This document shows, piece after piece, positions 7,927 to 35,396 of a stretch of 38,454 nucleotides of DNA. A program made the position numbers and the translations under genes. How positions within the stretch are numbered: the first letter of the stretch is position 1; every line of letters begins with the position of its first letter. Below the pieces are notes generated by a model that worked only from the letters and a program-made list of their open reading frames with translations, was not told the DNA's origin and did not search any database. Origin of the DNA: an uncultured Clostridia bacterium (GTDB lineage Bacteria; Bacillota; Clostridia; Oscillospirales; Ruminococcaceae); contig CAMNBY010000320.1 in NCBI GenBank assembly GCA_946533615.1, forward strand, positions 1 to 38,454, given 5' to 3'.

Positions 7927-8045
7927 GTTTTCCGGCGGGATAGGGAAACAGACACGGGTGCGGACGCGGAGCCTGCACCTTGACTTTTTTATAATAATGT
8001 ATTATAATTATAGTCGGACTCTCAAAAACAAACGGAGGTCGTGTA

Positions 8046-9407: not shown

Positions 9408-9429
9408 CAAGAAAACTCTAAAGACAGAG

Positions 9430-9469
9430 AACGGGCATCCTCCCGAACGGAGAGGATACCCGTTTTTTT
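9430..9469. terminator. Terminator between convergent LCP and SGNH genes
   Basis: AACGGGCATCCTC / GAGGATACCCGTT stem plus T tract. Confidence 0.8.
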
Positions 9470-9482
9470 GCGCTTGCGGCGT

Positions 9483-10445: not shown

Positions 10446-10456
10446 GACGCACCTCC

Positions 10457-12091: not shown

Positions 12092-12092
12092 A

Positions 12093-12323
12093 TCAATACT
12101 CCTCTTGCAGCCTTTCGATCATTTTCATGATCCTTTCGGCCGAGTTGAAATTGTCGGGGACGATCTCGACGGCAGGCACGGTGATGTCGTACTCCTCCTC
12201 GAGCTCGGCGATAAGCGAAATGATCGCGAGGGAGCTGAGGTAGTGACCGTCGATAAGGTCGGTGCAGCTGGCGTAGTCAACGTCGGGCTGAATGTCTTCA
12301 AGTATTTCGATAAGTCTTTCCAT
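12093..12323 (-). CDS. Acyl/aminoacyl carrier protein (DltC-like)
   Basis: Small acidic protein, LSSL at the phosphopantetheine position, PDNFNS; start MERLIEIL after AAAGGA. Confidence 0.85.
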   Translation of the reverse strand: MERLIEILEDIQPDVDYASCTDLIDGHYLSSLAIISLIAELEEEYDITVPAVEIVPDNFNSAERIMKMIERLQEEY

Positions 12324-12324
12324 G

Positions 12325-13509: not shown

Positions 13510-15025
13510 GGCCTGCACCTCCCAGCTGTTCTATGGTCTTTCGCCTGTCGATCTTGCCGTTTTTGTTAAGCACGATCTCGTCGAGCTTTCTTAAATATCC
13601 GGGTATCATGAAGACGGGCAGCACAGCCTTCATTGCGGCGTGAAGGTCGTTCTTGTCGATGGTCCCGAGGTAGTAGCCCTTGAGGCGCTGTTTCTTTTCG
13701 TCAAAGTCGCAAAAGCAGCGCTCGACGCCGTCTATCGCAGCCATTGCCCGCTCTATCTCTTCAAGCTCTATCCTGTGTCCCATGTACTTGACCTGATGGT
13801 CTGCTCTTCCGCAGAAGACGAGCTCGCCGCGATCGTTGTAAAAGCCAAGGTCGCCTGTAAGGTAGACGGTCTCGGGGTATCTGTCGTTCAGCGGGTTCCG
13901 GACAAAGCACTCGCTGTTCTTATCGTCAAGGCGGTAATAGCCGAGAGCGAGAGCTGTTCCCCTGACGGTTATCACGCCCGTTCTTCCCTGCTCTGTCACA
14001 AGCTCCCTGCCGTCAGCCAGCAGGAAGACGTCCTCGTTCGGGAAAGGCACACCCACAGGAATGCCCTCGGAATAGTCCCTGCCCTTTTCGAGAATGTGGT
14101 AGGTGCAGTTGCAGGTTATCTCTGTGGGGCCGTAGAGGTTGACGTACATCGCATCGGGAAGGTGCTTCTGCCATTGCAGCAGGTGCTTGTGCGGCATGAC
14201 CTCTCCGCTGAAAAGTATCTTGTTCACCGTTTCGGGGGTCTTGTAATCAAGGCCGTGGAAGGTGCTTATCAGGCAGAGTGCCGACACCGCCCAGATCATG
14301 GTGGTGGTCTTGTTGTCGCAGAGGTAGTCGATAAGCTTTGCGGGCGCCGAGAACAGCTGCCTCGGCACTATGACAAGCTCGGCGCCGACCGCGATGGCCG
14401 AATAAATATCCTTTACGGAAACGTCGAAATCGAAGGGCGCCTGATTTGCGATGACGTCCTTCTCGGTGATGCCGAAAAGCTCCGTGAAGCAGGAGATGAA
14501 ATCTATCACGCTCCTGTGACAGACGGCGATGCCCTTCGGCGTTCCTGTCGATCCCGAGGTGAAGTTGACGTACAGCGGGTCGGTGTCGATCATTCGGCTC
14601 TGTATCCTTTCAAGAGCGGCGCTGTCCTCCTCGTGCCCGGCAAGCTCGGCGGCGGTCAGTATCTCCGCTTTCGGGAAAAGCTCCGCGGCCTTTTGGCGAA
14701 GCTCGTCGGTGGTGATGACCGTGCCCGCCCCGAGCACACGACAGATATCCGACAGCCTCCCGTCGGGCAGCTCGGTATTAAGCATCGTGTAGAACCCGCC
14801 CGCACAGACCGTCCCGAAGAACGAGCAGAGGGCGTCGATGCCCTTTTCCATATATATCCCGACAGGCGCCCTCGGGGCGATGTGACCGACAAGCGCGGAA
14901 CCGATGCGGCGGCTTTGAGCCAGCAGCTCCGCATAGGTCAGGTGGCGCTCGTTCTCGGTTACAGCCCGCTTATCGGGTCTTTCGGCGGCGCTTTTTTCAA
15001 GCAGCCTGAGTATATTTGTTATCAT
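13499..15025 (-). CDS. Stand-alone amino-acid adenylation enzyme (DltA-like)
   Basis: LTYAEL, FTSGSTGTPKG, FDVS, NLYGPTE, YLTGDL, GHRIELEEIE, NGKIDR; promoter TTGACT(15104)-17-TATAAT(15081). Confidence 0.93.
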   Translation of the reverse strand: MITNILRLLEKSAAERPDKRAVTENERHLTYAELLAQSRRIGSALVGHIAPRAPVGIYMEKGIDALCSFFGTVCAGGFYTMLNTELPDGRLSDICRVLGAGTVITTDELRQKAAELFPKAEILTAAELAGHEEDSAALERIQSRMIDTDPLYVNFTSGSTGTPKGIAVCHRSVIDFISCFTELFGITEKDVIANQAPFDFDVSVKDIYSAIAVGAELVIVPRQLFSAPAKLIDYLCDNKTTTMIWAVSALCLISTFHGLDYKTPETVNKILFSGEVMPHKHLLQWQKHLPDAMYVNLYGPTEITCNCTYHILEKGRDYSEGIPVGVPFPNEDVFLLADGRELVTEQGRTGVITVRGTALALGYYRLDDKNSECFVRNPLNDRYPETVYLTGDLGFYNDRGELVFCGRADHQVKYMGHRIELEEIERAMAAIDGVERCFCDFDEKKQRLKGYYLGTIDKNDLHAAMKAVLPVFMIPGYLRKLDEIVLNKNGKIDRRKTIEQLGGAGRGS

Positions 15026-15248
15026 AAAATCAAACCCATTCCGATCTTTGATATATAATTTGTGCATACATATTTATTATACATCTCGATTTGAGCATAG
15101 TCAAGTGTTTTGCGCACATACTAACTAAAAATGACAATTTTTCGCCTTTCCGATAAAATGCTTATGGCGGCGGGTTTTCGCGGCTTTACTTTTTTTCGTG
15201 AATGTGGTATAATAACCGTGATATAGTCTATGAAAGGAGACCGCCTGA

Positions 15249-19477: not shown

Positions 19478-19537
19478 GCGCTTGATTTTTGTGCGTATTG
19501 CAACACAGTTTAATATTATTATATGGAGGTAAAGACA

Positions 19538-20869
19538 ATGGCAGAGTTTTTTGCAAATATCCCCAAGATCCCCTACGAGGGACCCAAGTCCAAGAACCCG
19601 CTTGCATTCAAGTACTATAATCCCGATGAGGTAGTTGGCGGCAAGACCATGAAGGAGCAGCTGAAGTTCGCGCTCTCCTGGTGGCACACAATGGGCGGCG
19701 ACGGCACCGATATGTTCGGCGTCGGCACAGCCGACAAGACCTGGGGCGCTGCCGATCCTGCCGAGAGGGCAAAGGCAAAGGTAGATGCTGCCTTCGAGAT
19801 CATGGACAAGCTTTCCATCAACTATTTCTGCTATCACGACCGCGACCTCTCGCCCGAGTACGGCTCCCTGAAGGAGACAAATGAAAAGTTCGACGAGATC
19901 GTTGACTATGTGGCAGAGAAAATGGCTGCCGACCCCTCGAAGAAGCTGCTCTGGGGCACCGCAAAGTGCTTTGACCATCCGAGATATATGCACGGCGCAG
20001 GCACCTCGCCCTCTGCCGATGTTTTCGCTTATGCAGCTGCACAGATCAAGAAGGCCATCGACTCCACTATCAAGCTGGGCGGCATGGGCTATGTTTTCTG
20101 GGGCGGCCGCGAGGGCTACGAGACCCTGCTTAACACCAACATGGGTCTGGAGCTGGACAACATGGCAAGGCTGCTGAGAATGGCTGTTGACTATGCCCGC
20201 GCTCAGGGCTACAAGGGCGACTTCTACATCGAGCCCAAGCCCAAGGAGCCTACCAAGCATCAGTACGACTTCGACACCGCGACCGTTATCGGCTTCCTGC
20301 GCAAGTACGGCCTTGACAAGGACTTCAAAATGAACATCGAGGCTAACCACGCAACGCTCGCACAGCACACCTTCCAGCACGAGCTGAGGGTCGCAAGGGA
20401 CAACGGCTTCTTCGGCTCCATCGACGCCAACCAGGGCGACGCCCTTCTTGGCTGGGACACCGACCAGTTCCCCACCAACGCTTATGACGCTGCTCTGTGT
20501 ATGTATGAAGTTCTGAAGGCAGGCGGCTTCACCAACGGCGGACTGAACTTTGACGCAAAGGCTCGCCGCGGCTCCTACACTCCCGAGGACATCTTCTACA
20601 GCTACATCGCAGGCATGGACACCTTTGCCCTCGGCCTGAGAGCCGCTGTAAAGCTGATCGAGGACGGCCGCATCGACAAGTTTGTTGACGACAGATACGC
20701 TTCCTGGAACAGCGGCATCGGCGCTGACATCATTGCCGGCAAGGTAACGATGGAGGATCTTGAGAAGTACGCGCTCGAAAAGGGCGAGGTGACCTCTTCC
20801 CTCCAGAGCGGCAGACAGGAGCTGCTCGAGAGCGTTCTGAACGACGTTATGTTCACTGTAAATCTGTAA
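19538..20869 (+). CDS. xylA: Xylose isomerase (class II)
   Basis: [42 protein letters not shown]; ATG after GGAGG. Confidence 0.98.
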
Positions 20870-20989: not shown

Positions 20990-21214
20990 TTACAAAGAAT
21001 TGAGCTTCTTTTGCAGCTCGATCATGTGGTTGCGGCAGGCGGTTATCTCGCCGGTGTACTTGTTGAACCACTCGACGTCCATTTCGTCAGGCTCCTCCTG
21101 CAAAAGCACGGCCTGCACCAGCGCCGACTGGGAACGCGAGCGCTTACGCTCTATCTCCTCGATGGTCTGGCGGCAGATCTTGATCTCCTTTTTAAGCTTT
21201 CTCTTCTCACTCAT
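20990..21214 (-). CDS. Small helical hypothetical protein, last gene of the minus-strand operon
   Basis: GAGGAG RBS, host-like codon use, ends at terminator. Confidence 0.75.
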   Translation of the reverse strand: MSEKRKLKKEIKICRQTIEEIERKRSRSQSALVQAVLLQEEPDEMDVEWFNKYTGEITACRNHMIELQKKLNSL

Positions 21215-21229: not shown

Positions 21230-21682
21230 CTAATTCCCTTTTAGGTCGATGCTTTCGATGACAGCCTCCAGCTCATCATAGCCCTTGTCGAGCTCCTCGA
21301 TGATATGGTCAATGGCTGTTTTTACCCCTTCCATCTTTTCCTGCATCTGCTCGGGATACTTTATCAGGCAGGTGTTCAGCTCGTTTATGATCTTCTGCCT
21401 GTCTTCAAAGTCGTTTATCAGGAACGCAAAGGAATTTGCGCCGCTGACATAGCTTGACGCCCGCCGATAGATCAGCTGATGATCGCCCTCGGGTTCAAGG
21501 AAGAAGCCGATCTCCTCGCTGGCGTGTTTCAGCTCGGTCATATACTGGCTGCGGTAGGTCTCCTGAACGCGGCGGGTCTCGTCGATATAAAGCCCGATAA
21601 AAACGGCAAGAGCGATAAACGCGATAAGCATCAGCACGATAGCTGTTATCATTCTACGCTTCATTATCTTCTCTTGATTCAT
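21230..21682 (-). CDS. Single-TM hypothetical protein
   Basis: AAGGAG RBS, N-terminal TM, overlaps upstream gene by 29 nt. Confidence 0.8.
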   Translation of the reverse strand: MNQEKIMKRRMITAIVLMLIAFIALAVFIGLYIDETRRVQETYRSQYMTELKHASEEIGFFLEPEGDHQLIYRRASSYVSGANSFAFLINDFEDRQKIINELNTCLIKYPEQMQEKMEGVKTAIDHIIEELDKGYDELEAVIESIDLKGN

Positions 21683-24632
21683 CCGTCTTCACTCCTTTGG
21701 CTGCAAGATCCTGCTGTGCCAGCCTCAGCTTTTCCTGCTCGATAGCTGCACGCATAAGGCGCTTGTGTTCCGCCTCGTTCTCGCGGCGTTTCTCGTCAAG
21801 CGCTTCGCCGCCAAGCCTTGCAATGCTCCTGATCTCGAAGACTGCGCCGACTGCGACCAGGATTATCACCGCCAGCAGCAGTATCTTCCTGACATCGGCA
21901 AAGGTGCCGAGCCAGTTGAAGAACCTTGCTTTTCCTGCATATTTTCCTATTATCTTTTCGGGCCTTACGGGAGCCGAGTCGGGAGTGTCGTTAGGCTCCC
22001 CGTCCGACTTGGTGTCGCCCTTTGTAATAAATGTTCCGTCCTCGCGGCACTCGATTATCCGGTGGGTGACGATCTTGCCATCGACGTCCTCCTGCTCGGA
22101 GTAGAAGGAGATAACGTCCCCTTCCTCGAGCGTATCGGTGTCTGCTTCCTCGGCTATTATATAATCGCCGACGTGTATCGAGGGCTCCATGCTGCCTGTG
22201 ACTACTCTGAGCACTGTCTTGCCGAAGACCTCGGTAGCCTTGCCTCGCGAAGCATTGAACAGCACATAACCGCAGAAGGCGATCAGTGCAACGGTAATCA
22301 CCGCCAGCAGGATATCAATTATCCGCTTTACTCCGCGTTCCGGCTGTTGGTCGGGCTCGGCGGCGGAGTCAGTTTTTTTTTGCGAGACTGCCTGCTTTAT
22401 CTCTATGCGCTGCCTCTGCTTTTCCTTACGCCACCTTGCAAAGCGCTCTATCCTTGAGACGTGATACTCTCTGTAGAGGCGCTTCATCTCCATATCTATC
22501 TCGCGCTGCTGCTCGGCAGTACGCTGAGGCGGAGTATACACAGGCTTCGGCTTGCCCTTGGCCTGCTGCAAGCGCTTCTTCTTGAACTTTCTGTCTTCCA
22601 GATACCTTCGCAGGCGGTACTTGAAGGTTCGCGCATACTTGCGGTAGTATGCCTCCATCTTGTTGCGCTCTTCGGTCTCGCGCTGCTTCTGAGCCTTCTT
22701 TGCTTCCAGCTCTGCGCGCAGCTTTTTGAAGTCGGGGTTGTCCGTATCTGCGGGTATGATATGGAACCAATAAACAAGGATATATCTGATGAGCCTTTCG
22801 AGCAGTCTGACGGGGTTCTTGGAATACTCCCAGCGGATCTCCTCGAAGGGCTTGCTCTCGAAGCGCTGACGCTCTGCTTTGAGGCGCTGGGCGCGTTCTT
22901 TTTCGCGGCGTTCCCGTTCGCGCTTCTGCTGCTCCAGCTTCATGCGGGCAGCGACAGCTCTGGGATCCTCGAACTCGGGCTCGTGCTCCTGTTCGGCGGC
23001 CTCCTCCTCGAGCTGAGCCTTGGCCTCTTCGATCTCGGCCTCGGTGACCTGCTCGTAGGCCTGCTTCTCCAGCTCGGCCTCGTCGGTGCCTGTCAGCTCG
23101 CTCTCGTCCATGCCTTCGGCTTCGCCAAGCTCAGAGCGCATCTTGTTCTTGTTAAGCAGCACACGCTCGCGTTCTGCGGCAGCGCGTTCTTCTTCCTCGC
23201 GGCGGAGGCGTTCCTCCTCCTCAAGGCGGCGCTGCTCCTCGAGCCTTGCCTGACGTTCGGCCTCAAGCCGCGCACGCTCGCGCTCTTCCTCTTCCTGCTC
23301 GCGCTTTTTCTGCTCGATGAGCTCCTGGATACGGCGCTGCTCTTCTTCCTGTTCGAGGCGTATGCGTTCGCGTTCCTCGCGCTTGGCCTCCTCGATGCGG
23401 CGCTGCTCCTCGAGCTTGCGCTCCTCCTCGAGGCGGACTCTCTCGGCCTCTTCCTCGGCCTTGAGCTGAGCCTGACGCTCGGCCTCTCTTGCGGCAAGGT
23501 AGGCTTTTTCGATCTTTATTGCCTCGCCGATCTGGTCAAAGACCTGAGTCATATTGGCGGGCAGCTTCTTTGTCAGCTTGAACTCGCCGTCGGCGGAGAT
23601 ATAGCCCACGGCGGCTTCGGTCTGTATCGCGTAATCCGCGGCGACTTCCTTGTCGAACTGCTTGACGAACCTTGGCACCAGCGGCTTTGAGCGCTTGGTC
23701 TTCAGCTCCTCCATGTCATATCCGTTATTATCGGTATATGAGCGGAAGAGCATGAGGTTCATGACTATCAGCTTATAGAAATCCTCGATGTAGTCGTCCT
23801 CGGGCTTAACTGCGGTGTTTTCGATGTTTATCTCATAGCCGACCTTATCGTAACCGACGATATACTGCCAGAGGGTAAGGCAGGCCTTGAGGTCAACGTT
23901 TTTCATTATGGCGTTGGTACGCATAACGGGAGGGCGGATAAAGGTATTGCCGAGCGTCATGCAAAGCTCGGAGCCCTTATAGCCCTCAATTATTTTTTTC
24001 AGCTTCTCGACGCGCTGCCAGATGGTATAGCCGTTGGCGTCCACGCTGTCGAGGGTCTCCGAGGTCTCGATCTTAAGCTCGATCTTCATTTTGCCGCCAT
24101 AGCCGTCATCCAGCATGGTATCATAGCCGAGGGAGAATACCTCCTCGTCCTTGGCGACCTGCGCCAGCTTTTCGTATCTTGTGTTTATAAATATATACAG
24201 CCTGTCGATGAGCGTGTTCACGAACTTGTTCTCGTATGTGAACATACTCTCTTCTTTATGGACATTGAGTATCTTTGAGGGGGTTATCTTTCCCGTGCGC
24301 TTGTCGATGCTCTGTATCAGATCGGTATGCTGAGCCAGATGCTTGACAGACTCGACGGTTATCTTCCGCGAGCGCTCGATAGGCACGATCTCCTCGACGT
24401 CCTCGATCGTCCTGCTTGGGTTTCTGAGCACGTTATCAACATGGATAAGGCCGTTCTCGATCGCCTCTACCCATGAGACATCTATTGCTTTTTCAAGCAG
24501 CTTGCGGTTAAAGGCGAAGGTATTCCTGCTCTGGTGGAGCAGCGAATCGAGGGAGTCAAACAGCTCATCATCGCCGAATTCGCTTACTGCTGTTTTGAAT
24601 TCATCATACCACTTGCCGTAAAAGCTGTTCAA
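21654..24632 (-). CDS. Fusion: DUF2357 (McrC-like N-terminal domain) + long E/R/K helix + SipW-type signal peptidase I
   Basis: N-term EEIVPIE.SRKIT.ES..HLAQH, PSKILN, TYENKF; C-term TM, VVTGSMEP, VTHRI, TKGD, second TM; TTG start. Confidence 0.8.
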   Translation of the reverse strand: MNSFYGKWYDEFKTAVSEFGDDELFDSLDSLLHQSRNTFAFNRKLLEKAIDVSWVEAIENGLIHVDNVLRNPSRTIEDVEEIVPIERSRKITVESVKHLAQHTDLIQSIDKRTGKITPSKILNVHKEESMFTYENKFVNTLIDRLYIFINTRYEKLAQVAKDEEVFSLGYDTMLDDGYGGKMKIELKIETSETLDSVDANGYTIWQRVEKLKKIIEGYKGSELCMTLGNTFIRPPVMRTNAIMKNVDLKACLTLWQYIVGYDKVGYEINIENTAVKPEDDYIEDFYKLIVMNLMLFRSYTDNNGYDMEELKTKRSKPLVPRFVKQFDKEVAADYAIQTEAAVGYISADGEFKLTKKLPANMTQVFDQIGEAIKIEKAYLAAREAERQAQLKAEEEAERVRLEEERKLEEQRRIEEAKREERERIRLEQEEEQRRIQELIEQKKREQEEEERERARLEAERQARLEEQRRLEEEERLRREEEERAAAERERVLLNKNKMRSELGEAEGMDESELTGTDEAELEKQAYEQVTEAEIEEAKAQLEEEAAEQEHEPEFEDPRAVAARMKLEQQKRERERREKERAQRLKAERQRFESKPFEEIRWEYSKNPVRLLERLIRYILVYWFHIIPADTDNPDFKKLRAELEAKKAQKQRETEERNKMEAYYRKYARTFKYRLRRYLEDRKFKKKRLQQAKGKPKPVYTPPQRTAEQQREIDMEMKRLYREYHVSRIERFARWRKEKQRQRIEIKQAVSQKKTDSAAEPDQQPERGVKRIIDILLAVITVALIAFCGYVLFNASRGKATEVFGKTVLRVVTGSMEPSIHVGDYIIAEEADTDTLEEGDVISFYSEQEDVDGKIVTHRIIECREDGTFITKGDTKSDGEPNDTPDSAPVRPEKIIGKYAGKARFFNWLGTFADVRKILLLAVIILVAVGAVFEIRSIARLGGEALDEKRRENEAEHKRLMRAAIEQEKLRLAQQDLAAKGVKTDESREDNEA

Positions 24633-24675: not shown

Positions 24676-26241
24676 TCAGAACAGCTTCTGCAGTCTCTCG
24701 AGGTATGCGACAGACTCGTTCATCTTGTTCTTTCCGAAGGTCTTGTTGATGTAGACTACCAGCTCGCGGAGCTCGTCACGGAGCATCGCAAGGTTCAGGG
24801 ACTCGAACTTTCTGAAGATCTTGGTCGCCAGAACATAGTCGATACCGTCAAGCTCGTCGCCGCCGCAGGCGACATAAACGGGCACGAACAGACCCATCTG
24901 CTTCAGGATACGGTTACCGAAGGCAACTCTGAGCTTTTCAATTACCCAGAGATCCATCTGCTGTATCTTTTTAAGATTCTCCTGAGAGATAGGATATTTC
25001 TCGAAGGCTTCCTTAAACAGCTTGTCGAGGTGGTCGAAGCCGATATTTATCGGCGGGGTATCGGGTGCATCGAAGGCGATGCCCTTTGCGTCAAGGTTTA
25101 TAGGCTGGGCACGGTCATATACCTTATCGGAGATAGCGTAGGTGGAGTCGTCGTTATTGGCGGTACCTATATACCAGACGTTCTGAGGGATAATGAGCTT
25201 GCCGCGGTCCAGCTTGACAGGGTCGGTGCTCCATACGTTAGGCACGAGGTCAAGCTCCCACTCATCGGCGTTGGGCATTTCGAGAATGGAGAGCATCTCG
25301 GCGAAGTAATACTCGATACGGGCGATGTTCATCTCGTCGAGGAGGATGAAGTTTACATCGTTATTATAGCCCGATGAGTATATCCTTTTGAGGACCTCGG
25401 TCTCGTTGAAGTTCTTGGTGAATTCATTGAAGTAGCCGAAGAGCTCGGTGCGGTCACGCCACGAAGGCTGAACAGATGCGATAGTCGTATCGTTCTGGAG
25501 GAACTTTCCGAAGGAGTAAGGCAGGGACGTTTTACCTGTACCAGAGATACCCTGAAGGATAATGAGCTTTGTAGAGGCCATACCCGCAACAAAGAGGCGG
25601 ATAGTCTTCTTCTCGTAATAGAGGTTCATACGGGAGCAGGCAAAATTCCTGTAGCGGTCGCAGAACTCCTCGAGGGTGATCTCGTTGTCGTACTCAGGCG
25701 GAGTATAATTCCTGTAAAATGCGTCCACCTCGAGCAGGCGCGAGAAGCGGCGGTCTGCGGTCTGGATAACGCCCTCCTCGACGACTGTGGCCTCTCCGCC
25801 TTCGCCGCCCTCGTAGGGCACGGTGCTGCCGTCGGCAAGGGAGAGCGAGCCCGAAACAGGCAGACCCATCTGGGCGACCTTCATGGCCATGATCTCGTCC
25901 TTTTCCTTAGTCATTTTCAGCACCTGCCGCTGCAGGTCGGAGATCTCCTCAAGCAGATCCTCGTTGCTGACGATGGAGTGGCGGAAGCGCACATACTTTC
26001 TGACGGCGAGAATGATGATGAACGCCAGCAGCAGGTACACCGCAACTACAAGGATCAGCGACAGCACGGCCAGTATCCAGCTCAGCGCAGTAAAATCCGT
26101 TGAGTAGCTCTTGAAGATATCAATATAATTCTTGATATTGAAAATTTGTACTATTCCGTGTCCAATGCCCTTGAAGATAGTGGCAAAGCCCTTGAGCATC
26201 TCGGATATGAACACGAAGAACCATCTAAGAAATCCGTTCAT
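24676..26241 (-). CDS. Membrane-anchored McrB-like AAA+ NTPase
   Basis: N-terminal TM and coiled coil; GISGTGKT, VQPSW, LLDEMN.ARIEYYF, GTANNDD (McrB NxxD signature), KVYDRA. Confidence 0.85.
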   Translation of the reverse strand: MNGFLRWFFVFISEMLKGFATIFKGIGHGIVQIFNIKNYIDIFKSYSTDFTALSWILAVLSLILVVAVYLLLAFIIILAVRKYVRFRHSIVSNEDLLEEISDLQRQVLKMTKEKDEIMAMKVAQMGLPVSGSLSLADGSTVPYEGGEGGEATVVEEGVIQTADRRFSRLLEVDAFYRNYTPPEYDNEITLEEFCDRYRNFACSRMNLYYEKKTIRLFVAGMASTKLIILQGISGTGKTSLPYSFGKFLQNDTTIASVQPSWRDRTELFGYFNEFTKNFNETEVLKRIYSSGYNNDVNFILLDEMNIARIEYYFAEMLSILEMPNADEWELDLVPNVWSTDPVKLDRGKLIIPQNVWYIGTANNDDSTYAISDKVYDRAQPINLDAKGIAFDAPDTPPINIGFDHLDKLFKEAFEKYPISQENLKKIQQMDLWVIEKLRVAFGNRILKQMGLFVPVYVACGGDELDGIDYVLATKIFRKFESLNLAMLRDELRELVVYINKTFGKNKMNESVAYLERLQKLF

Positions 26242-26260: not shown

Positions 26261-26986
26261 TTATTCCTCAGTTTTTTCAGAGGTTTCCTGCTTGTTATCG
26301 TCGCTGTCGGGCTGCGCCGCTTCGTTTTTTTCGTCAGCCGCTTGTTCACCCGAGGCCTCGGCCTCCTTGGCCTTCTGGCTGGCTATGTACTCCTCGACGG
26401 CTCGGCGCTTGATCTCCTCCTCGTCGTCCTCGGTGATCGAGGGGCGCTTGATCTCGATGAGGGTAGCGATGAACTTATAAAGCTCGAAGAGGAAGAAGAG
26501 CGCCATTGGGATAAGTATGCAGATGAAGAAGCCCTTCTGCGTTCCGAGGAAGCGCATCACCTTGCCGAACCCGGGGATCCTTGAACCTGTCCACTTGCCG
26601 ATGATATCGGCGGGCTTGACGCTTGTGGAGTCGTCGGTGGGGTTGTTGTCGCCTCGTGTGGTGAAGCTGAGAGTGCCGTTCTGGTCGTCTATATCGACGA
26701 TCCTATGCGTGTTCTTCACGCGCTGGCCGTCAATGTACGTCCAGAAGGTAATGACGTCGTCCTCTTTCAGGTCATAGACGTCGTCCACCTCGCGGCAGAT
26801 TATGAGGTCATCGGTCTTGAAGGTGGGCTTCATCGAATCCGACTCGACGGTCAGGGGAATAAAGCCGAAAAGATTTGCGACGCCGTTGTTTCTTCCCGTG
26901 GAAAATACCACCAGGGTGACCAGCAGCGCAAATATCAGCAGCACCCAGGCGAGAACGTTGACTACGATTTTAAGTACTTTTTTCAT
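26261..26986 (-). CDS. sipW: SipW-type (ER-type, Ser/His) signal peptidase I
   Basis: TM, VESDSMKP, NTHRI, TRGDNN, IIGK, second TM. Confidence 0.9.
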   Translation of the reverse strand: MKKVLKIVVNVLAWVLLIFALLVTLVVFSTGRNNGVANLFGFIPLTVESDSMKPTFKTDDLIICREVDDVYDLKEDDVITFWTYIDGQRVKNTHRIVDIDDQNGTLSFTTRGDNNPTDDSTSVKPADIIGKWTGSRIPGFGKVMRFLGTQKGFFICILIPMALFFLFELYKFIATLIEIKRPSITEDDEEEIKRRAVEEYIASQKAKEAEASGEQAADEKNEAAQPDSDDNKQETSEKTEE

Positions 26987-27008: not shown

Positions 27009-27746
27009 TCAGGTGGTCTCTGTTATCTTAAAGTCCATCGAGAGCTTCAGCGTTCCGCCGATAAGCTCATCGACACAGTCGGGGTCGTTGCCCTCGAGCC
27101 AGATAACTACCGTATATTTATCCTTGGCCTTTGGCTCGAAGTCCTCGCGCTGGTTCCGCATTACGATCGTTGAGGAAAGGAACTCGCTGTCACAGTCGCC
27201 CTCCTTGCCTGAACCATCTGACTTCGTTTTGCCGTAGACGGTCTTTTCGCCGTTGTAGTAGACGGCGATCCTCACAGCCTCGTCAACGTTCTTGGTAACA
27301 TTTTCTATATTCATTTCGCCCTCGTAGGAGAGGGTATCGCTTCCCGAATTGATAAGGTAGAAGGTATAAGCGATGTAGCTTTCGCCGTTATGGCTGCCGT
27401 TTATCATGTCGATATTATCGGGCAGGTCCTCGCCGCTGATATTGGTCATATCGTAGACTATATCGGCATTCAGGGTCGAGATGGTCTTCTCGAACTCGGG
27501 AGTTTCCGAGAGTGTCAGTCCCTGCCGCATCATATCATATTTATTCACCTTTACGGTAAAGCTTCCGTATTTATCATAGAAATACGAGATAGCGTAGGCG
27601 ATGGCGATGATCGCGACGAGTATTATCACAAGCAGTCCAAGTATCCTTGTAATAATAACGTATCGCTTGACCTCCTTGGCCGAACGGCGGAGCTCAAGGA
27701 CATCGACCATTTTGCCTGACCTTGGTTCCTGTTTCTTGTCACTCAA
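27009..27746 (-). CDS. Membrane-anchored protein homologous to the TasA-like subunit at 28790-29836
   Basis: One TM; shared motifs YTFYL, VRIAV, WLEGNDPDC; TTG start after AAGGAG. Confidence 0.7.
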   Translation of the reverse strand: MSDKKQEPRSGKMVDVLELRRSAKEVKRYVIITRILGLLVIILVAIIAIAYAISYFYDKYGSFTVKVNKYDMMRQGLTLSETPEFEKTISTLNADIVYDMTNISGEDLPDNIDMINGSHNGESYIAYTFYLINSGSDTLSYEGEMNIENVTKNVDEAVRIAVYYNGEKTVYGKTKSDGSGKEGDCDSEFLSSTIVMRNQREDFEPKAKDKYTVVIWLEGNDPDCVDELIGGTLKLSMDFKITETT

Positions 27747-27805: not shown

Positions 27806-28564
27806 TTATTGATCCTCGTTTTTGCGCCTGATGTAGCGCTCGGACATATAGTTCCCTACGAGGGCGCCTGCACAGTAGTTGCAGCCGAAGCTGTAGAGCT
27901 GCTCGGCCTGTTTTGCACTGCGGACGCCGTCGGCGACGGGGATAGCCTCCAGCTCGGAGACGAAATCTATGATCGACTTCACTGCGCCGTCGGAGCGCTC
28001 GCTGCGGCCGAGGAACTGTGTCACCTCGGGAGAGAGCATAACGTAATCCACGTCGAACTCCGAGAGCTTCATCATCGGGCAGGAGTCGGAGCCGAAGCCC
28101 GTGAGCATAAAGTGAAAGCCCTTGTTCCTGAGGTTCAGCAGTGTTCTTGCGGCCTTGCCGTCGCTCTGTTCAAGCAGCTTTGCCGAAAGCGCGAAGCACA
28201 TCTTGTTGGTGTTGACCTTGAAGCGCTCGCAGAAGCCCATGATGTTATATTCCGCGCGGGGGTTTTTCAGGTAATCTGCGGGCATATAGACCGAGAGCCA
28301 GTCGAAGACGATCTCGCGCTCGGTGAATTTTGCGCAGGCCTCGAGAGCCTGGACGAGTTCGAGCTCGAAGAGGGAGATACACTGGTTTGTGATCTCGGAG
28401 ACATCGCGGAAGCTTTCGGGCATCATGACGCCGAGCGCAGGAGTATTAAGTCTTGTCTGAGACTGTAGGAATGCGGTGCTGCCGCTTGAGATCTCTCTTA
28501 TAACGCGGTAATAGAGCTCAACGGCTCTGAGTCCGCCTACGGTAGTCTGAACTTCCTGTTCCAC
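27806..28564 (-). CDS. Degenerate stand-alone EAL domain protein
   Basis: EAL scaffold with EAL>QSQ, DDFGTG>TGFGSD, EGVE>DGVR, QG>AG; GTG start after GGGAGG. Confidence 0.8.
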   Translation of the reverse strand: MEQEVQTTVGGLRAVELYYRVIREISSGSTAFLQSQTRLNTPALGVMMPESFRDVSEITNQCISLFELELVQALEACAKFTEREIVFDWLSVYMPADYLKNPRAEYNIMGFCERFKVNTNKMCFALSAKLLEQSDGKAARTLLNLRNKGFHFMLTGFGSDSCPMMKLSEFDVDYVMLSPEVTQFLGRSERSDGAVKSIIDFVSELEAIPVADGVRSAKQAEQLYSFGCNYCAGALVGNYMSERYIRRKNEDQ

Positions 28565-28606
28565 GCTGCACCTCCCGATGATTTTTAAGCACAGATACTC
28601 TATTCT

Positions 28607-28635
28607 ATTATACAACATATTCACTAAAATGTCAA
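28607..28635 (-). promoter_or_regulatory. Consensus sigma-A promoter of the EAL-SipW-McrB operon
   Basis: TTGACA-17bp-TATAAT on minus strand. Confidence 0.8.
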
Positions 28636-28722: not shown

Positions 28723-28754
28723 AAAAAAATCCCCCGGACTTGTGATCCGGGGGA
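28723..28754 (-). terminator. Terminator of TasA-like gene
   Basis: TCCCCCGGA / TCCGGGGGA stem followed by T7 on minus strand. Confidence 0.8.
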
Positions 28755-28789
28755 CATGGTTGTTTAGTTAGTTAAGTTTTAAGCTTTGA

Positions 28790-29836
28790 TTACGGAGCAG
28801 CAGTAGCACCTGTGCCACCTATTGCAGTATCCTGGAAAGTTACATCAACCAGATAGGTATCAAGAACCTCTGTGAGGTTATCAGATTTACAATTGGAATC
28901 TTCACCTTCGAACCAAAGATAAACGTATACCGGGGTACCTTCGTGGTTTGTAGCATCTCCGGTTACAGGAGCAATGGTTACCTCACCACCGATATTAACA
29001 GATGCAAATGCAGTTTCTCCAGTTTCACTTCTTGTAATTGTAGCAGCTTGCTTAGTAGTTCCTTTAGCATCTTTTGTAACGTCATACGATGTATCGCCAC
29101 CAAGAGGTGCAAAAATAGCATAGTTACTATCATTATACTTAACACCTACACGAAGCGACTTATCAAGATCCGTGCTTATCTTTTCGGTTTCAGTGTTCTT
29201 CTTAGTAACCTTTACTTTAGCCTGAAGTGCATTCTGAGCAATGCTTAACGTACTTTCACCTGATGATTTAAGATAGTAGGTATACTTTACATAGAATCCT
29301 TCGCCGTTATTATACTCACCTGCTGTACCGAAACTTGCATCTTTATAGAACACATTGGTTTCAGCCTTTGTATTGCCTGCAGCATCATTCGCAGCTACAA
29401 GGTCATACTTTGTCGCCTGTGTACCGCTGGCACTTTCGTCAATTACAATATATTTGTTGCCACTTGAATCAACATCAACGGTCTTTGTGGTGTTATCCAC
29501 ACCTGCTTCAATACTTGACTGCATCGAGTTAGCGTGCCACCAATTAGAAAGGTTATAAGTAGAAGCAGGTCTCAACGAAATAGCCTGATTAAGTTCAGTC
29601 TGACCACCTGTTGCCTCTTCGTCCCAGTGGGTGTCATTAGCGGCCTTAACTTCGTTGATGAGCAGGCCCTCTTCAGCGTGGGCCTTAACTTCCATACCGG
29701 TTACTTTAACTTCCTTATTCATTGTGAACCATGCGTAAGTCGCAGTGGAAAGCATTACTGCGGAGCAGGTCAGCATTGCAATTGCGGGGATAAGCTTTCT
29801 CTTAGCTGATTTGTTGTTAGTCTTTTTCATATCCAT
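28790..29836 (-). CDS. Secreted protein with SipW-dependent signal peptide (TasA/CalY-like fibre subunit candidate)
   Basis: KRKLIPAIAML..SAVMLSTATYAWFT signal; beta-rich mature part; start may be ATG 29830. Confidence 0.8.
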   Translation of the reverse strand: MDMKKTNNKSAKRKLIPAIAMLTCSAVMLSTATYAWFTMNKEVKVTGMEVKAHAEEGLLINEVKAANDTHWDEEATGGQTELNQAISLRPASTYNLSNWWHANSMQSSIEAGVDNTTKTVDVDSSGNKYIVIDESASGTQATKYDLVAANDAAGNTKAETNVFYKDASFGTAGEYNNGEGFYVKYTYYLKSSGESTLSIAQNALQAKVKVTKKNTETEKISTDLDKSLRVGVKYNDSNYAIFAPLGGDTSYDVTKDAKGTTKQAATITRSETGETAFASVNIGGEVTIAPVTGDATNHEGTPVYVYLWFEGEDSNCKSDNLTEVLDTYLVDVTFQDTAIGGTGATAAP

Positions 29837-29925
29837 TTTCCTTTCATAATTTATTTCGTATCCTACATGGCCGAGTGGCCGATCACTCTTTGGCCTATGC
29901 TTTACGATAGTAATTCTATGCTATT

Positions 29926-30184: not shown

Positions 30185-31363
30185 TTACTCCTTATCCTCT
30201 TTCCTCTTCTTGACCGTCAGGGTGATGATACCGCCCAGAACAGCTGCGCCTGCAACTGCGGGGCCTGCAACAGAGACCATAACGCCTGTGGGGACAACGC
30301 CCTTCTTCTCGTTGGTGTAGGTAACGGTGGTGTCGCCCTTGATGGTATCGGTGAACTCACCTGTGAGCTTATCATCAGCTTCCGTGGCTGTGCCGTCTGT
30401 GTCGTCGCCTGTAGGGACGATACTTTTAACGGTGTAATCCTCGAAGTTCTCTGTGATAGTGTACTCAGCGCCGTCGGGCAGACCCGTGATCTTGATGGAC
30501 TCGCCGTGCTGGAGCAGAACGGTCACGTTTGCTGTGCCGTCTGCGCCGCAAACGATGGCGTTCTCGCCCGAGGGGTTAGTACCGCTCACGGTGGTAGCAC
30601 CGTTTGTGTCTGCGGTGATCTCGGCGGTGGTGGCGTTGGTGGTGTCAACGTTCAGCTTTGTGCCGCTGCCTGCGTTTGAGATAGCAACGGTGAACGAGAA
30701 GTACTTATCCTTCGATGCCTGGTTGCCCTCGACGCTCTTTGCGATAGTCAGGTCGTGGGAGTTGTAGGTGTTTGTATAGCCTGTGGACTTCTCAAGCGCT
30801 GTTGGATTCTCGCTCTTTTCGGGGCTGTCCTCGCACCTGCCGTTTCTGAATGTGGTACCGGCGATCCCAAGCTTGCCTGTGCCGTCGTCCTGAACGTAAA
30901 CATCAAGGGTACGGACAGGTGTGGCATCGTTGGTAAATGCTGAATTCTCGGTAGCAGTCTCGGTGATGTAATAGCGGTAAACGCCGGGCTCTGAGAATTC
31001 AACGCCCGTAAAGCTAACGTTCACGGTCTTGGATTTCTCGGCGTCTCCTGCTGCAAATACCGCATCGGATACTGTGGGGAGCGCAGTGGTGGTGTAGATA
31101 GGCAGCGATGTTTCGGTGCCTGCCTTAGCTTCGGCCTGTGTTACGGTGAATTTGAACGTAACTGCGGGAACGTTCGCGTCTTCCTCGACTTCAAGAGCCT
31201 TTGTGAAATCGTAGGTGGTCTTATCCTCAAGCTTATAGGTGATAGCGGTATACTTATAGGGGGTGTGTGTTTCGGGCGCCTCTGATGCAAACGCAGACAG
31301 AGACATCATTCCTGCTGCGAGAGCAGCAGCAGCAAAGCCTGCAAGGAGTCTTCCCTTCTTCAT
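30185..31363 (-). CDS. Sortase-anchored pilin-like surface protein (Spy0128/T-antigen-like)
   Basis: Signal peptide, FSEPGVYRYYITE, LTIAKSVEGN, YTITE, YTN, C-terminal VPTG + TM + KKRK; ATG after GGAGG. Confidence 0.75.
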   Translation of the reverse strand: MKKGRLLAGFAAAALAAGMMSLSAFASEAPETHTPYKYTAITYKLEDKTTYDFTKALEVEEDANVPAVTFKFTVTQAEAKAGTETSLPIYTTTALPTVSDAVFAAGDAEKSKTVNVSFTGVEFSEPGVYRYYITETATENSAFTNDATPVRTLDVYVQDDGTGKLGIAGTTFRNGRCEDSPEKSENPTALEKSTGYTNTYNSHDLTIAKSVEGNQASKDKYFSFTVAISNAGSGTKLNVDTTNATTAEITADTNGATTVSGTNPSGENAIVCGADGTANVTVLLQHGESIKITGLPDGAEYTITENFEDYTVKSIVPTGDDTDGTATEADDKLTGEFTDTIKGDTTVTYTNEKKGVVPTGVMVSVAGPAVAGAAVLGGIITLTVKKRKEDKE

Positions 31364-31600
31364 AATATTACCTCCGTTTTGAAAGATGATACAACGGCGC
31401 TGCTTCCGCAGAAAAACACCGGTAGTTATACAATTTAATTTTAACACGCTGCAAGGCATTCGTCAAGCCCTTTTGCAAAAATAATTAACATTTTGTGTAT
31501 ATTCCGTTTCAATCGCCAAAACAAAGGGGGAATTTTTGTTAAAAATGATAACTCGTGTAAAAAGAAGCGGCCAAGGCCGCTTCCTGTTTTATAGTCGTTA

Positions 31601-33892
31601 TTACTTTCCGAAGGCAAAGGCCTCGAAATCCGCGAGGGGCATGGGTCTTGCGAAGTAATAGCCCTGGAAAAGGCGGCAGCCCATATCCGCAAGCTGGGTA
31701 TACTGCGATTCGGTCTCGACGCCCTCGGTGAGCGAGGCTATATCGAGCTCGTCCGAAAGGCGGATAATGTTCCTGACGATCGTCTTTGCCTTTTCCCTGC
31801 TGCCCGAGGAGGAGAGGAATTTCATGTCGATCTTCAGCACGTCTACCGGCATATCCTTGAGCAGGTTCAAGGAAGAAAAGCCGCTGCCGAAATCGTCCAT
31901 TTCTACAATGAAGCCTGCCGAGCGAAGCTCCGCAAGAGTCCTCATACGCTCTTCCTGATCGTTCATCATGATGCTCTCGGTGATCTCTATGCGCAGCTTG
32001 CGTGCCTCGAGGCCGTACTCTTTTATCAGCGCTTTCAGCTCGGCGGCAACGTCAAAGAAATAGAAATCCTTCGGCGAGATGTTCACGGAGATGAACAGGT
32101 CGTCATGGCTGCCCTTCCAGTCCGCAAGTATCTTGCAGGCACAGCGCCACATATGCTTGTCCACCTCGGAGATCATGCCGTTCTTCTCGAAGACGGGAAT
32201 GAACATGAACGGCGGCATGAAGCCCTGCTCCGGGTGTATCCAGCGAGCCAGCGCTTCGGCGCCGACTACCCTTCCGCTGCTGTCGGTGATCGGCTGGAGA
32301 TAGGGGCGGATCTGCATGGTGTCGATGGCCTCGCGCAGGGAGGCTGTTATGGTCTGATCCCAGAGCACCTTGTCGCGGAGCTTGTTGTCATAGTACGCGA
32401 TATGCGTGCCGTACTCGTCCCTGATCGTTGACAGCGCAAGGTGAGCCCTGTCGAACATAACAGAAACGTCGATGTCGCGCTCCGTTACCTCATACACGCC
32501 CAGCTGCACCAGCAGGTGGTGCTCCCTTATGCCGTCGGAGACCGTAAAGGCCGAAAGCTCGGGCTCGATCAGGTGCTTGTCCTCTTTGTATTTCTCGGAG
32601 GGCACGAAGATGCCGAAGGTGTCTCCTGCCAGCCTGCCGTAGACGCAGCGCTTATCCATATCCTTCTCTATCCAGCGAGCCAGCTGGCAAAGCGCCTTGT
32701 CGCCGAACTCAGAGCTGAAAATATCGTTTACCACCTTAAAATCCTTTACGTCCACAAAGACGGCGGTGTAAAGGGTGTCGGGGTTCTCGTCCACTACCTT
32801 CCTCACGGTGTCGTAGAAGTGCTGCTTGGTGTAAAGACCCGTCAGGCTGTCGTGGGTCGAGTTGTAAAGCTCGCGCCTGAGGCGCTGCTGCTCGTCGGTG
32901 TTGTCGCGGATAACGAGGAACGAGCCCGCAAAGTGCTTGCTGTCGGCGGAAACGTTATGGCTCTCGATGGTGAAATATCTTGCGTGTTCGCCGAAGCCGA
33001 CTATCCTTGTTTCGACCCAGTCGTCCCTGGAAAATTCCTTTTCGCCGAATATCGTCCTGAGCGAGCTGCTGACACGCTCAAGGTGTTCGAGGTCTGCGTG
33101 GGTCAGCTCGCGGGCGGGCTTGTTCAGCCAGATGCAGTTGCCCGCAGGATCATAAACAAAAAGCGCGTCGGGCAGGTCGGAAACTATATCCGAGAGCATT
33201 CTGTCAAGCAGCTTCATCGGCCTGTGCCTCAGCGAAAAATAGAACACCAGCACTCCGCACACGCCGTAGCCGATCATCGAGCGGTCAACAGGTGTCCGCG
33301 AGAAGACATAGAAGGTCTGCCACACGCCGACTGCTATCATCGAAGTGAGAATGACCGAGAATCTCTCGCGGTATATCTTGGCTGTTTTAAGCACCGCAAG
33401 GACGTAGATCAGGATAACGCAGAAGAAAACGAAATAGATCGTGATGCGGTGGATTATCTGTCCTGCATGGGGAACGACGGAATAATAGGGCTTGCCCTGG
33501 ACGTCCACGGGCTCGAGCCCGAAGGCGTGGCCGAAGAACGGGTTCAGCAGCATCTGAACGGCATCGGCGGCAAGCAAAACGTACATGATCGTAGGCCGCT
33601 GCTGGCCGTTGCCGATGCCGCGGCAGTACTCGTTTGTAAAGTTGACCAGCGCCGCGATAACAATATCCATGCCGATCAGATAGATATAATATCCCCAGAC
33701 GGCACGGCTCTCGACGCTTGAACCAAGGATAATGCAGTTGCCGAGCAGCGGCGGCAGCAGGGCGAATTCAAGCAGACCCACAGCCTTGCCTATGGGCTTC
33801 TTTGACCTCAGCGCCTGCACTGCACAGACCACGAGCAGCAACGCAAGGAAGGTCATTATTGCCGAAAAGGAGACGCGGATATTAAGACTCAT
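31601..33892 (-). CDS. Membrane (~7TM) PAS-GGDEF-EAL protein, likely c-di-GMP phosphodiesterase
   Basis: Degenerate AGDTF; intact EAL, EITE, DDFGSG, KID, EGVE, QG. Confidence 0.92.
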   Translation of the reverse strand: MSLNIRVSFSAIMTFLALLLVVCAVQALRSKKPIGKAVGLLEFALLPPLLGNCIILGSSVESRAVWGYYIYLIGMDIVIAALVNFTNEYCRGIGNGQQRPTIMYVLLAADAVQMLLNPFFGHAFGLEPVDVQGKPYYSVVPHAGQIIHRITIYFVFFCVILIYVLAVLKTAKIYRERFSVILTSMIAVGVWQTFYVFSRTPVDRSMIGYGVCGVLVFYFSLRHRPMKLLDRMLSDIVSDLPDALFVYDPAGNCIWLNKPARELTHADLEHLERVSSSLRTIFGEKEFSRDDWVETRIVGFGEHARYFTIESHNVSADSKHFAGSFLVIRDNTDEQQRLRRELYNSTHDSLTGLYTKQHFYDTVRKVVDENPDTLYTAVFVDVKDFKVVNDIFSSEFGDKALCQLARWIEKDMDKRCVYGRLAGDTFGIFVPSEKYKEDKHLIEPELSAFTVSDGIREHHLLVQLGVYEVTERDIDVSVMFDRAHLALSTIRDEYGTHIAYYDNKLRDKVLWDQTITASLREAIDTMQIRPYLQPITDSSGRVVGAEALARWIHPEQGFMPPFMFIPVFEKNGMISEVDKHMWRCACKILADWKGSHDDLFISVNISPKDFYFFDVAAELKALIKEYGLEARKLRIEITESIMMNDQEERMRTLAELRSAGFIVEMDDFGSGFSSLNLLKDMPVDVLKIDMKFLSSSGSREKAKTIVRNIIRLSDELDIASLTEGVETESQYTQLADMGCRLFQGYYFARPMPLADFEAFAFGK

Positions 33893-35228: not shown

Positions 35229-35396
35229 GCAAAACACTCCCGATGTGCAAATTGTACAATTTTCCAATATATAGTATAACACATTTATTTCAGTTTTGCA
35301 AGAGCGCAGCAAAAAGCTTTACATTTGACATAAGATATGGTATAATTTATAATGTTGGAGTATTATCTCCGACAATAAAGAACAAAGGATCTTAAC

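What the first reader, a model, noticed from the sequence alone, without database searches (positions are those of the whole stretch)
21654..24632. McrC-like DUF2357 domain with nuclease replaced by a signal peptidase
Seen: single 992-aa frame, no recognisable PD-(D/E)xK nuclease after the DUF2357-like region, and a C-terminal TM-flanked SipW with Ser (GSMEP), His (THRI) and KGD intact. No RBS/start is evident before the peptidase TM. Inference: a cytoplasmic NTPase activator is physically wired to an extracytoplasmic protease, which is direct fusion evidence linking the two modules.
Basis: partly seen in the sequence, partly recalled or inferred. Interest (0 to 1): 0.85.

Follow-up and report, generated by a model that had tools for sequence, protein, structure and literature searches.

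The report
McrC-like partner fused to signal peptidase
This gene is a real fusion, conserved in many Ruminococcus relatives, of a restriction-enzyme-derived (McrC-like) domain that lacks its DNA-cutting part and a membrane signal peptidase; it likely ties a membrane-anchored nucleotide-driven motor to the processing of predicted surface-fibre subunits, in a gene set already named CoCoPALM in 2024.

Summary
The fusion is real. The 992-aa frame carries an McrC-like DUF2357 finger (best fold matches are McrC, finger only), a long charged helix, and a two-TM SipW-type peptidase with Ser814/His857. It is fused in 25 of 81 complete relatives (sample biased to close kin), including Ruminococcus albus and R. 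flavefaciens isolates. Contigs from three other sequencing runs cross the junction without an indel.

The nuclease was not swapped for the peptidase. Split relatives also carry a charged tail in its place. The peptidase lies about 500 residues downstream and likely joined by read-through of an abutting gene; the junction is the least conserved part (23%).

The gene sits in a conserved operon: degenerate EAL, TM-anchored TasA-fold protein, SipW, TM-anchored NxD McrB, this gene. That matches CoCoPALM (Bell et al. 2024, one paragraph). I found the fusion in no paper, but this scan noted it before on other DNA.

Best reading: the protein tethers a peptidase to the McrB ring of a surface-fibre assembly machine. 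Direct motor-to-peptidase control is inferred, not shown. New variant of a known kind; interest 0.5.

The parts
21654..24632 (-). Fused gene, 992 aa: McrC-like DUF2357 finger, charged single helix, basic helical region, TM1, SipW-type peptidase, TM2
23844..24494 (-). McrC-like finger domain (aa 47-263); K244 is a candidate activating residue (inferred)
   Evidence: Pfam DUF2357; fold match to McrC 6ut5_G and 6hz4_M; K244 in 70 of 70 rows; alignment to E. coli McrC K157
23733..23798 (-). Helix aa 279-300, likely the remnant first helix of the lost PD-(D/E)xK domain
23133..23507 (-). ER/K-rich segment aa 376-500, predicted single alpha-helix rather than heptad coiled coil (about 19 nm if fully helical)
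   Evidence: 62% E/K/R, opposite-minus-like charge pairs 52 against a shuffle mean of 1.0 (0 of 1000 shuffles), a/d hydrophobic fraction 0.26; signature in 25 of 25 fused and 40 of 56 non-fused
22317..22442 (-). Fusion junction (aa 731-772), matching the stop/start region of split relatives
   Evidence: bridged by contigs of three runs
21831..22313 (-). SipW-type peptidase 2: TM1 aa 774-792, Ser814 (codon 22191-22193), His857, KGD, TM2 aa 916-934
24676..26241 (-). Membrane-anchored McrB-like AAA+ NTPase (TM aa 62-80, heptad coil 89-125, GISGTGKT, LLDEMN, GTANNDDS)
26261..26986 (-). Stand-alone SipW-type peptidase 1, Ser and His present
27009..27746 (-). Single-TM protein with a predicted TasA-like ectodomain, lacking the AxAWF cleavage motif; likely fibre base or anchor
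   Evidence: AF2 pLDDT 87.5; best Foldseek hit TasA fibre 8aur E 1.4e-5; VIA Z 7.0, rmsd 7.2, 136 aligned, tied with other beta-sandwiches
27806..28624 (-). Stand-alone degenerate EAL protein (QSQTRL for EALxRW, TGFGSD for DDFGxG); possible c-di-GMP input; the true start is probably downstream of 28624
28790..29836 (-). Secreted TasA-like protein with a TYAWF SipW-type signal; likely major fibre subunit and peptidase substrate
   Evidence: E 5e-38 to the profile of the TasA-fold protein family; the profile's alignment includes this protein
21230..21682 (-). Conserved 150-aa single-TM protein whose start overlaps the end of the fused gene
   Evidence: (35 loci)
20990..21214 (-). Conserved 74-aa helical protein, last gene of the operon
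   Evidence: (30 loci)

Best explanation
The gene encodes one protein that joins a nuclease-less McrC-like finger, through a long charged helix, to a SipW-type signal peptidase with intact catalytic residues, and it likely serves as the tether that holds this peptidase at a membrane-anchored McrB NTPase ring in a machine predicted to process and assemble TasA-like surface fibres.

Steps:
(1) Shown in sequence: the operon, the fusion, the McrB motifs, the Ser/His residues and the TYAWF substrate motif.
(2) Predicted: the McrB-like protein forms a hexamer held at the membrane by its TM helices. The finger would plug its pore and stimulate hydrolysis, as McrC does.
(3) Predicted geometry: in McrBC the McrB N-terminal domains and the McrC C-terminal domain both lie near the top face of the ring. 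TM anchors and the helical arm would therefore both point to the membrane, which makes the fusion feasible.
(4) Inferred: the two peptidases cleave the AxAWF signals. The subunits would polymerise by donor-strand exchange onto the uncleaved TM-anchored TasA-like protein.
(5) Inferred, weakest: the NTPase cycle, possibly under c-di-GMP input through the degenerate EAL, positions or gates peptidase 2. In split relatives the same contact would be non-covalent or only local.
For: Gene order SipW - TM-McrB - DUF2357 - SipW recurs across the loci fetched from Oscillospiraceae, Lachnospiraceae, Eubacteriaceae and Christensenellaceae, with TasA-like AxAWF genes nearby.
McrB Walker A, Walker B and the N-x-D motif are invariant in 68 of 68 rows. 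The finger is 83% identical among fused forms, and K244, R207, T239 and N240 are invariant in 70 of 70.
Ser/His/GD are intact in 25 of 25 fused peptidases; Ser and His are kept in all 53 downstream stand-alone domains aligned.
96 of the 120 closest proteins carry the peptidase.
The TM protein's ectodomain has TasA as its best fold match.
McrC's pore binding, Arg263/Lys157 stimulation, rotation model and top-face geometry come from passages of PMC7680126.
SipW-dependent TasA-like oligomers in a clostridium come from passages of PMC11580942.
Against: The fusion is optional: 56 of 81 complete relatives are not fused, and only 3 of the best 150 clusters at 50% identity carry the peptidase. In 8 loci the peptidase lies 0.7-3.7 kb away, and 3 show none downstream within the DNA held.
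The junction (23%) and TM1 (37%) are poorly conserved, which is not what a force-transmitting link would suggest. One relative (L026) has a frameshift just before the junction.
The activating residue is uncertain: five nuclease-bearing NxD homologues show no lysine in the register I read, and a profile comparison with E. coli McrC found no significant alignment.
Bacillus TasA fibres form without such a motor (recalled).
No experimental data exist here.
Confidence: 0.55

Rival explanations
1. The fusion is an incidental, tolerated read-through of two translationally coupled genes. Peptidase 2 works as an ordinary dedicated signal peptidase, and the McrBC-like pair has a separate job in the same fibre operon, such as signalling or positioning.
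For: 45 of 56 non-fused relatives have the genes within 200 nt, many overlapping. Junction sequences differ between fused clades and are the least conserved part. Both trees need 4 changes of state.
Against: The fused state has been kept across clades whose peptidase domains are down to 40% identical, including cultured isolates (L042, L047, L060). One origin is not excluded: AU p 0.046 with all 26 fused rows, 0.29 without long-branch L075.
Confidence: 0.27
2. The module is an anti-phage or stress switch. The McrBC-like motor senses a cytoplasmic trigger and activates the peptidase to shed or remodel surface fibres or receptors.
For: McrBC ancestry; the McrB matches PADLOC candidate PDC-M26A at 130 bits; it belongs to the same NxD branch as CoCoNuT defence systems.
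Against: No nuclease, no DNA-reading head and no PADLOC hit for the other five operon proteins, apart from two weak ones on the 150-aa protein. GC content is like the surroundings (0.48-0.57). Neighbours are secretion and c-di-GMP genes. The PADLOC match covers part of the AAA+ core only.
Confidence: 0.1
3. The C-terminal domain is a non-catalytic SipA-like pilus chaperone, as the HHpred label in Bell et al. might suggest.
For: Supplementary file 1 of PMC11090510 lists SipA (4N31) as the hit for the CoCoPALM peptidase. That SipA lacks catalytic residues is recalled, not checked here.
Against: Ser and His are kept in 25 of 25 fused domains and all 53 downstream stand-alone domains aligned; His is kept in 83 of 83 upstream copies and Ser in 76 of them, the other 7 having a gap at that column. 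TIGR02228 is above its cut-off.
Confidence: 0.05
4. The single frame is an assembly or sequencing error, or the N-terminal part hides a working nuclease.
For: The genome is a fragmented assembly (332 contigs, 75% complete), and a 9-A run lies at the junction. Residues 601-765 were not folded by me.
Against: Contigs from three other runs bridge the junction with no gap. 25 other loci are fused. No nuclease core follows the finger in the model or in the alignment with nuclease-bearing homologues.
Confidence: 0.02

Closest known systems
[quoted passage not shown]
   Same: NxD-type McrB with an N-terminal TM and coiled coil, an McrC homologue with a long helical extension, and adjacent signal-peptidase-family genes (passages; Supplementary file 1, part 1 of 2).
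   Different: The passages and supplement rows I saw do not mention an McrC-peptidase fusion, loss of the nuclease, TasA-like substrates or the degenerate EAL. They label the peptidase SipA-like, whereas the catalytic Ser/His are intact here. Figure 3-figure supplement 1 could not be seen and may show more.
McrBC type IV restriction enzyme (E. coli and T. gammatolerans; PDB 6HZ4, 6UT5; Niu et al. 2020, PMC7680126)
   Same: AAA+ McrB core (E 7e-5) and McrC finger fold.
   Different: A TM anchor stands in place of the modified-DNA-binding head, there is no PD-(D/E)xK domain after the finger, the motif is NxD-type, and a peptidase is fused.
SipW/TasA-type fibre operons (B. subtilis tapA-sipW-tasA; C. 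perfringens sipW-bsaA-bsaB-bsaC, PMC11580942)
   Same: Ser-His SipW-type peptidase with two TM helices and a TasA-fold partner (8aur).
   Different: Two peptidases, an McrBC-like NTPase pair, a degenerate EAL and a TM-retained TasA-like protein. The score against the Bacillus SipW equivalog is below its cut-off (81.6 against 190).
CoCoNuT systems (Bell et al. 2024)
   Same: NxD McrB plus DUF2357 partner; some types have also lost the McrC nuclease and gained other domains.
   Different: No HEPN or other nuclease, helicase or RNA-binding domain was found in this operon; it is membrane-anchored and secretion-linked.

Membership tests
CoCoPALM | McrB-like GTPase with the NxD signature | tested here: met
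   GTANNDDS: N, D and the following D are invariant in 68 of 68 and line up with GTVNMDET of NxD homologues. The letters also fit NxxD literally.
CoCoPALM | N-terminal TM plus coiled coil (FtsB-like) on McrB | tested here: met
   TM aa 62-80; heptad fraction 0.55 at aa 89-125. Homology to FtsB itself was not tested.
CoCoPALM | Associated signal-peptidase-family genes | tested here: met
   Two TIGR02228 matches above cut-off flank McrB; the order is conserved.
CoCoPALM | Coiled coil fused to the McrC homologue (said to be usual, not obligatory) | tested here: inconclusive
   A long charged helix is present, but it has a single-alpha-helix rather than a heptad signature.
CoCoPALM | Placement in the authors' CoCoPALM clade (example RHC33375.1) | not tested
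   The accession is named; I did not obtain the sequence.
McrBC type IV restriction enzyme | McrC finger domain | tested here: met
   Pfam DUF2357; top fold matches Z 8.8 and 8.6, 141 aligned.
McrBC type IV restriction enzyme | PD-(D/E)xK nuclease directly after the finger | tested here: not met
   The model after aa 263 has one strand, one helix and disorder. The alignment with five nuclease-bearing homologues matches only the first nuclease helix, and a charged helix follows. Residues 601-765 were not folded by me.
McrBC type IV restriction enzyme | Modified-DNA-binding domain on McrB | tested here: not met
   The N-terminal 125 aa are hydrophobic helices and a coil.
McrBC type IV restriction enzyme | Activating Arg/Lys in McrC (R263/K157) | tested here: inconclusive
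   K244 is invariant and falls within one residue of E. coli K157 in a local alignment, but hhalign was not significant.
SipW-type (S26B) signal peptidase | Ser-His dyad, GD motif, flanking TM helices | tested here: met
SipW-type (S26B) signal peptidase | Proteolytic activity on AxAWF precursors | not testable with these tools
   Needs an assay.
Bacillus SipW equivalog (NF046067) | Score above the curated cut-off | tested here: not met
   81.6 bits against 190.
CoCoNuT | Tandem nucleases (HEPN or other) in the operon | tested here: not met
   Pfam, NCBIfam and PADLOC scans of the operon proteins found none; the conserved neighbours are secretion and EAL genes.

The most novel reading that the evidence does not exclude
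A restriction-enzyme motor has been turned into an envelope machine. A membrane-anchored McrB hexamer acts as stator, the McrC-like finger steps round its pore as rotor, and a ~19-nm single-helix arm carries that motion to a membrane signal peptidase. Fibre subunits would then be cleaved and added in step with NTP hydrolysis under c-di-GMP control, making this a nucleotide-driven signal peptidase.
Probability: 0.2. Interest if true: 0.88.

Novelty: new variant of a known kind. Interest (0 to 1): 0.5.

Why it matters
Signal peptidases are usually treated as passive enzymes (recalled). A conserved covalent link to the partner of an AAA+ ring raises a testable question: does NTP hydrolysis control the processing of a surface fibre? 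CoCoPALM was named in one paragraph, and my searches found no experimental study of it. The fused form occurs in cultured rumen cellulose degraders (R. albus KH2T6, R. flavefaciens Y1 and MC2020), and natural split forms exist in close relatives, so there is a ready comparison. If the fibre mediates attachment in the rumen, the system also bears on how these bacteria colonise plant material. The fusion alone is modest news: databases already hold these proteins as 'signal peptidase I', and it may be a tolerated read-through.

Tried and rejected
- Complex prediction of two McrB AAA+ domains with the finger: no answer (score 0.00, controls not folded). It counts neither for nor against binding. 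Only 2 of the 6 expected subunits fitted the size limit.
- Sequence search of the finger profile against PDB: no McrC hit. Profile comparison with E. coli McrC: not significant.
- A nuclease profile built from five homologues found nothing below E 0.037 in 150 representatives or the fused proteins. The positive control E. coli McrC scored only E 0.041, so this test is insensitive.
- A PD..ExK-like string at about aa 633 lies in a charged helix and its presence at that position varies among fused forms; rejected as chance.
- No nuclease entry appeared among the listed fold matches, but those lists are filled by aa 44-236 and do not test the rest.
- Atlas: no usable feature hit for aa 555-765 of homologue P0048, best TM 0.33. 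For the TYAWF protein only unnamed clusters, and a weak Peptidase_M73 lead at 0.86. The TM protein was not held.
- Rfam: no match in the window, and no c-di-GMP riboswitch in 6 of 6 loci scanned.
- Internal start for the peptidase: none between M716 and TM1 in the window. Scattered, non-conserved candidates occur in some of the 23 relatives printed before the script stopped. M716 is also kept in split forms as part of the upstream protein.
- RNA runs (contigs only): run X15 has one contig, 28750-29880, spanning just the TYAWF gene. Contigs cannot show level, strand or ends, so this is a hint only, and no RNA contig listed bridges the junction.
- Number of fusion events: unresolved.
- Rows dropped before counts: three loci fetched twice (L019, L021, L024) and DUF genes cut by a contig end. 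L078/L079 and L032/L033 are near-copies and were kept where complete.
- Literature searches without a paper on the fusion: DUF2357+McrB, SipW+McrB (17), CoCoPALM (23), SipW+Ruminococcus+TasA (57), McrBC+signal peptidase+coiled-coil+pilus from 2024 (74), SipW+signal peptidase+AAA+ +fusion+TasA (99). The library lacks most subscription papers.
Full report
OBSERVATION. The frame 21654-24632 on the minus strand is stop-free for 992 codons and has a strong ribosome-binding site before its TTG. Pfam places DUF2357 at aa 65-163 (E 1e-8). NCBIfam places an archaeal/ER-type signal peptidase I at aa 770-931 above its cut-off, while the Bacillus SipW model stays below its cut-off. Ser814, His857 and KGD are present, and hydrophobic helices lie at 774-792 and 916-934. 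No in-frame start codon lies between M716 and TM1.

NOT AN ARTEFACT. The genome is a fragmented assembly and a 9-A run sits at the junction, so I tested it. Contigs of three public runs from different studies (X1, X5, X10) cross 22300-22450 without a gap; the best holder may be the source sample. Among 60 relatives searched, 16 had the finger: 10 intact fusions, one frameshifted just before the junction, four split and one cut by a contig end. Adding the best 80 of 596 McrB loci from GTDB and dropping three duplicates and the cut genes leaves 81 complete genes: 25 fused and 56 not fused. This sample is biased to close kin. The named fused loci are all Oscillospiraceae, nearly all labelled Ruminococcus, including R. 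albus KH2T6 and R. flavefaciens Y1 and MC2020. 96 of the 120 closest proteins carry the peptidase. Across 50%-identity clusters, 1041 match the finger at E <= 1e-30, but only 3 of the best 150 are fused. The fusion is therefore a lineage-limited form of a large family.

THE N-TERMINAL PART. An AF2 model of aa 1-385 from 70 sequences (pLDDT 79) has McrC as its two best matches, over the finger domain only (Z 8.8 and 8.6, 141 residues; Foldseek E 0.017). These scores are modest and are read together with the Pfam hit and the adjacent McrB. After the finger come one strand, one helix and disorder. Five more distant homologues that keep a nuclease-like C-terminus (motif reading is mine) show that helix 279-300 matches the first nuclease helix, after which similarity ends. 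Residues 376-500 are 62% E/K/R with a strong excess of opposite-charge i+3/i+4 pairs (0 of 1000 shuffles) and no heptad pattern, which fits a single alpha-helix rather than a coiled coil. The signature is found in 25 of 25 fused and 40 of 56 non-fused proteins; those p-values are optimistic because the best window was chosen. Residues 601-765 are basic, predicted helical from composition, and gave no nuclease hit, but I did not fold them. K244 is invariant and lies within a residue of E. coli K157 in a local alignment; the assignment is not secure.

HOW THE FUSION AROSE. In 45 of 56 non-fused loci the peptidase gene starts within 200 nt of the DUF2357 stop, often overlapping it; in 8 it is 0.7-3.7 kb away, mostly behind further secreted-protein genes; in 3 none was seen downstream. 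The window's junction matches the stop/start region of split relatives and is the least conserved segment (23% against 83% for the finger and 57% for the peptidase core). Trees of McrB (87 rows) and of the finger (59 rows) each need 4 changes of state, of which 2 and 1 are forced by well-supported branches. The AU test gives p 0.046 for one fused clade and 0.29 without one long branch. With distant relatives all split, the likely order is: nuclease lost and charged tail gained in the family ancestor, then read-through into the peptidase once or a few times. The peptidase did not replace the nuclease.

THE OPERON. The conserved order is degenerate EAL, single-TM protein, peptidase 1, TM-McrB, DUF2357 protein, peptidase 2, then in the closer relatives a 150-aa TM protein and a 74-aa protein, with variable AxAWF-signal genes nearby. 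McrB keeps Walker A, Walker B and N-x-D-D in 68 of 68 rows and has a TM helix and heptad coil at its N-terminus. The EAL protein lacks the catalytic EAL, DDFG and EGVE motifs that full-length controls keep. The TM protein's ectodomain folds confidently (pLDDT 87.5) and best matches the TasA fibre (Foldseek E 1.4e-5, with archaeal bundling pili at E 1.4e-3; VIA Z 7.0, tied with other beta-sandwiches). The upstream 348-aa protein has a TYAWF signal and is related to it. It is the only convincing substrate my motif scan found in this 75%-complete genome, which holds one McrB and one DUF2357 of this kind. Ser and His are kept in all 25 fused and all 53 downstream peptidase domains aligned.

MECHANISM. 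In McrBC the finger fills the pore of the McrB hexamer, stimulates one site at a time and is proposed to rotate; density for the McrB N-terminal domains and the McrC nuclease both lie near the top of the ring (PMC7680126, passages). A related preprint notes that the finger occludes the pore and that some homologues do not discriminate between nucleotides (10.64898/2026.08.31.748284, passages), so the fuel here may not be GTP and a pore-threading translocase is unlikely. Carried over to this operon, TM anchors and the helical arm would both face the membrane, and the fused protein would hold peptidase 2 at the ring. I rate the tether-in-a-fibre-machine reading 0.55, incidental read-through 0.27, defence switch 0.10, non-catalytic chaperone 0.05 and artefact 0.02. 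Binding, activity and coupling are all inferred.

WHAT IS KNOWN. Bell et al. [quoted passage not shown] I saw passages, part 1 of 2 of Supplementary file 1 and a term search of four supplement files; the figures, including Figure 3-figure supplement 1, were not visible. The preprint version has the same paragraph (PMC10542128, passages). PMC11580942 (passages) describes SipW-dependent TasA-like oligomers in C. perfringens. PMC9674648 (search listing and abstract start only) names donor-strand exchange for TasA. Six searches found no paper on the fusion or any experimental study of CoCoPALM. Databases label the fused proteins simply 'signal peptidase I'. Earlier notes of this scan report the same system and the same fusion in other genomes; I had reached CoCoPALM before reading them and do not count them as support.

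VERDICT. Observation confirmed, interpretation partly supported. New variant of a known but uncharacterised kind. Interest 0.5; 0.88 if NTP-driven control of the peptidase proves true (probability 0.2).

Noticed in passing
window 486-7634: Mob_Pre relaxase, DUF2971 gene, C5 DNA methylase, NotI-like endonuclease and AAA_21 ATPase; GC is 0.32-0.42 over 2001-8000 against about 0.55 elsewhere. Looks like a mobile restriction-modification island.
   Followed up: no
window 8046-15067: LCP-family gene, then a cluster with SGNH-like, MBOAT and PLP-decarboxylase hits and an adenylation-like ORF (read from sequence): probably a cell-envelope acylation cluster.
   Followed up: no
window 30185-36527: A pilin-like protein with isopeptide domains and a VVPTG sorting-like motif and three GGDEF or GGDEF-EAL genes lie directly upstream of the operon. 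Full-length GGDEF-EAL-type genes also flank many distant copies of the operon.
   Followed up: partly
window 28750-29880: One contig of metatranscriptome run X15 spans only the TYAWF gene and ends near a hairpin followed by a T run. A weak hint that it is a separate transcript; contigs cannot show level or ends.
   Followed up: partly
window 27806-28624: The degenerate EAL has no SD-like site at the longest start (-0.7) and most close relatives are about 250 aa; the real start is probably a GTG some 60 nt downstream, after GGGAGG.
   Followed up: partly
L026:400-3344: A same-genus genome has a frameshift in the basic region before the junction, giving 714-aa and 320-aa frames; natural break or assembly error not resolved.
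   Followed up: partly
L130:7051-11611: A distant McrB (827 aa) and DUF2357 (690 aa, Cys-rich C-terminus) pair with no peptidase or TasA-like gene in 18 kb; more similar to this family than the nuclease-bearing homologues are.
   Followed up: no
L086, L087, L089, L090, L095, L104, L105, L110, L112: In this distant clade the DUF2357 protein has a 200-400 aa N-terminal extension and lacks the single-helix signature, so the arm is not universal.
   Followed up: partly
window 19523-20869: Xylose-isomerase-like gene converging on the operon's end.
   Followed up: no
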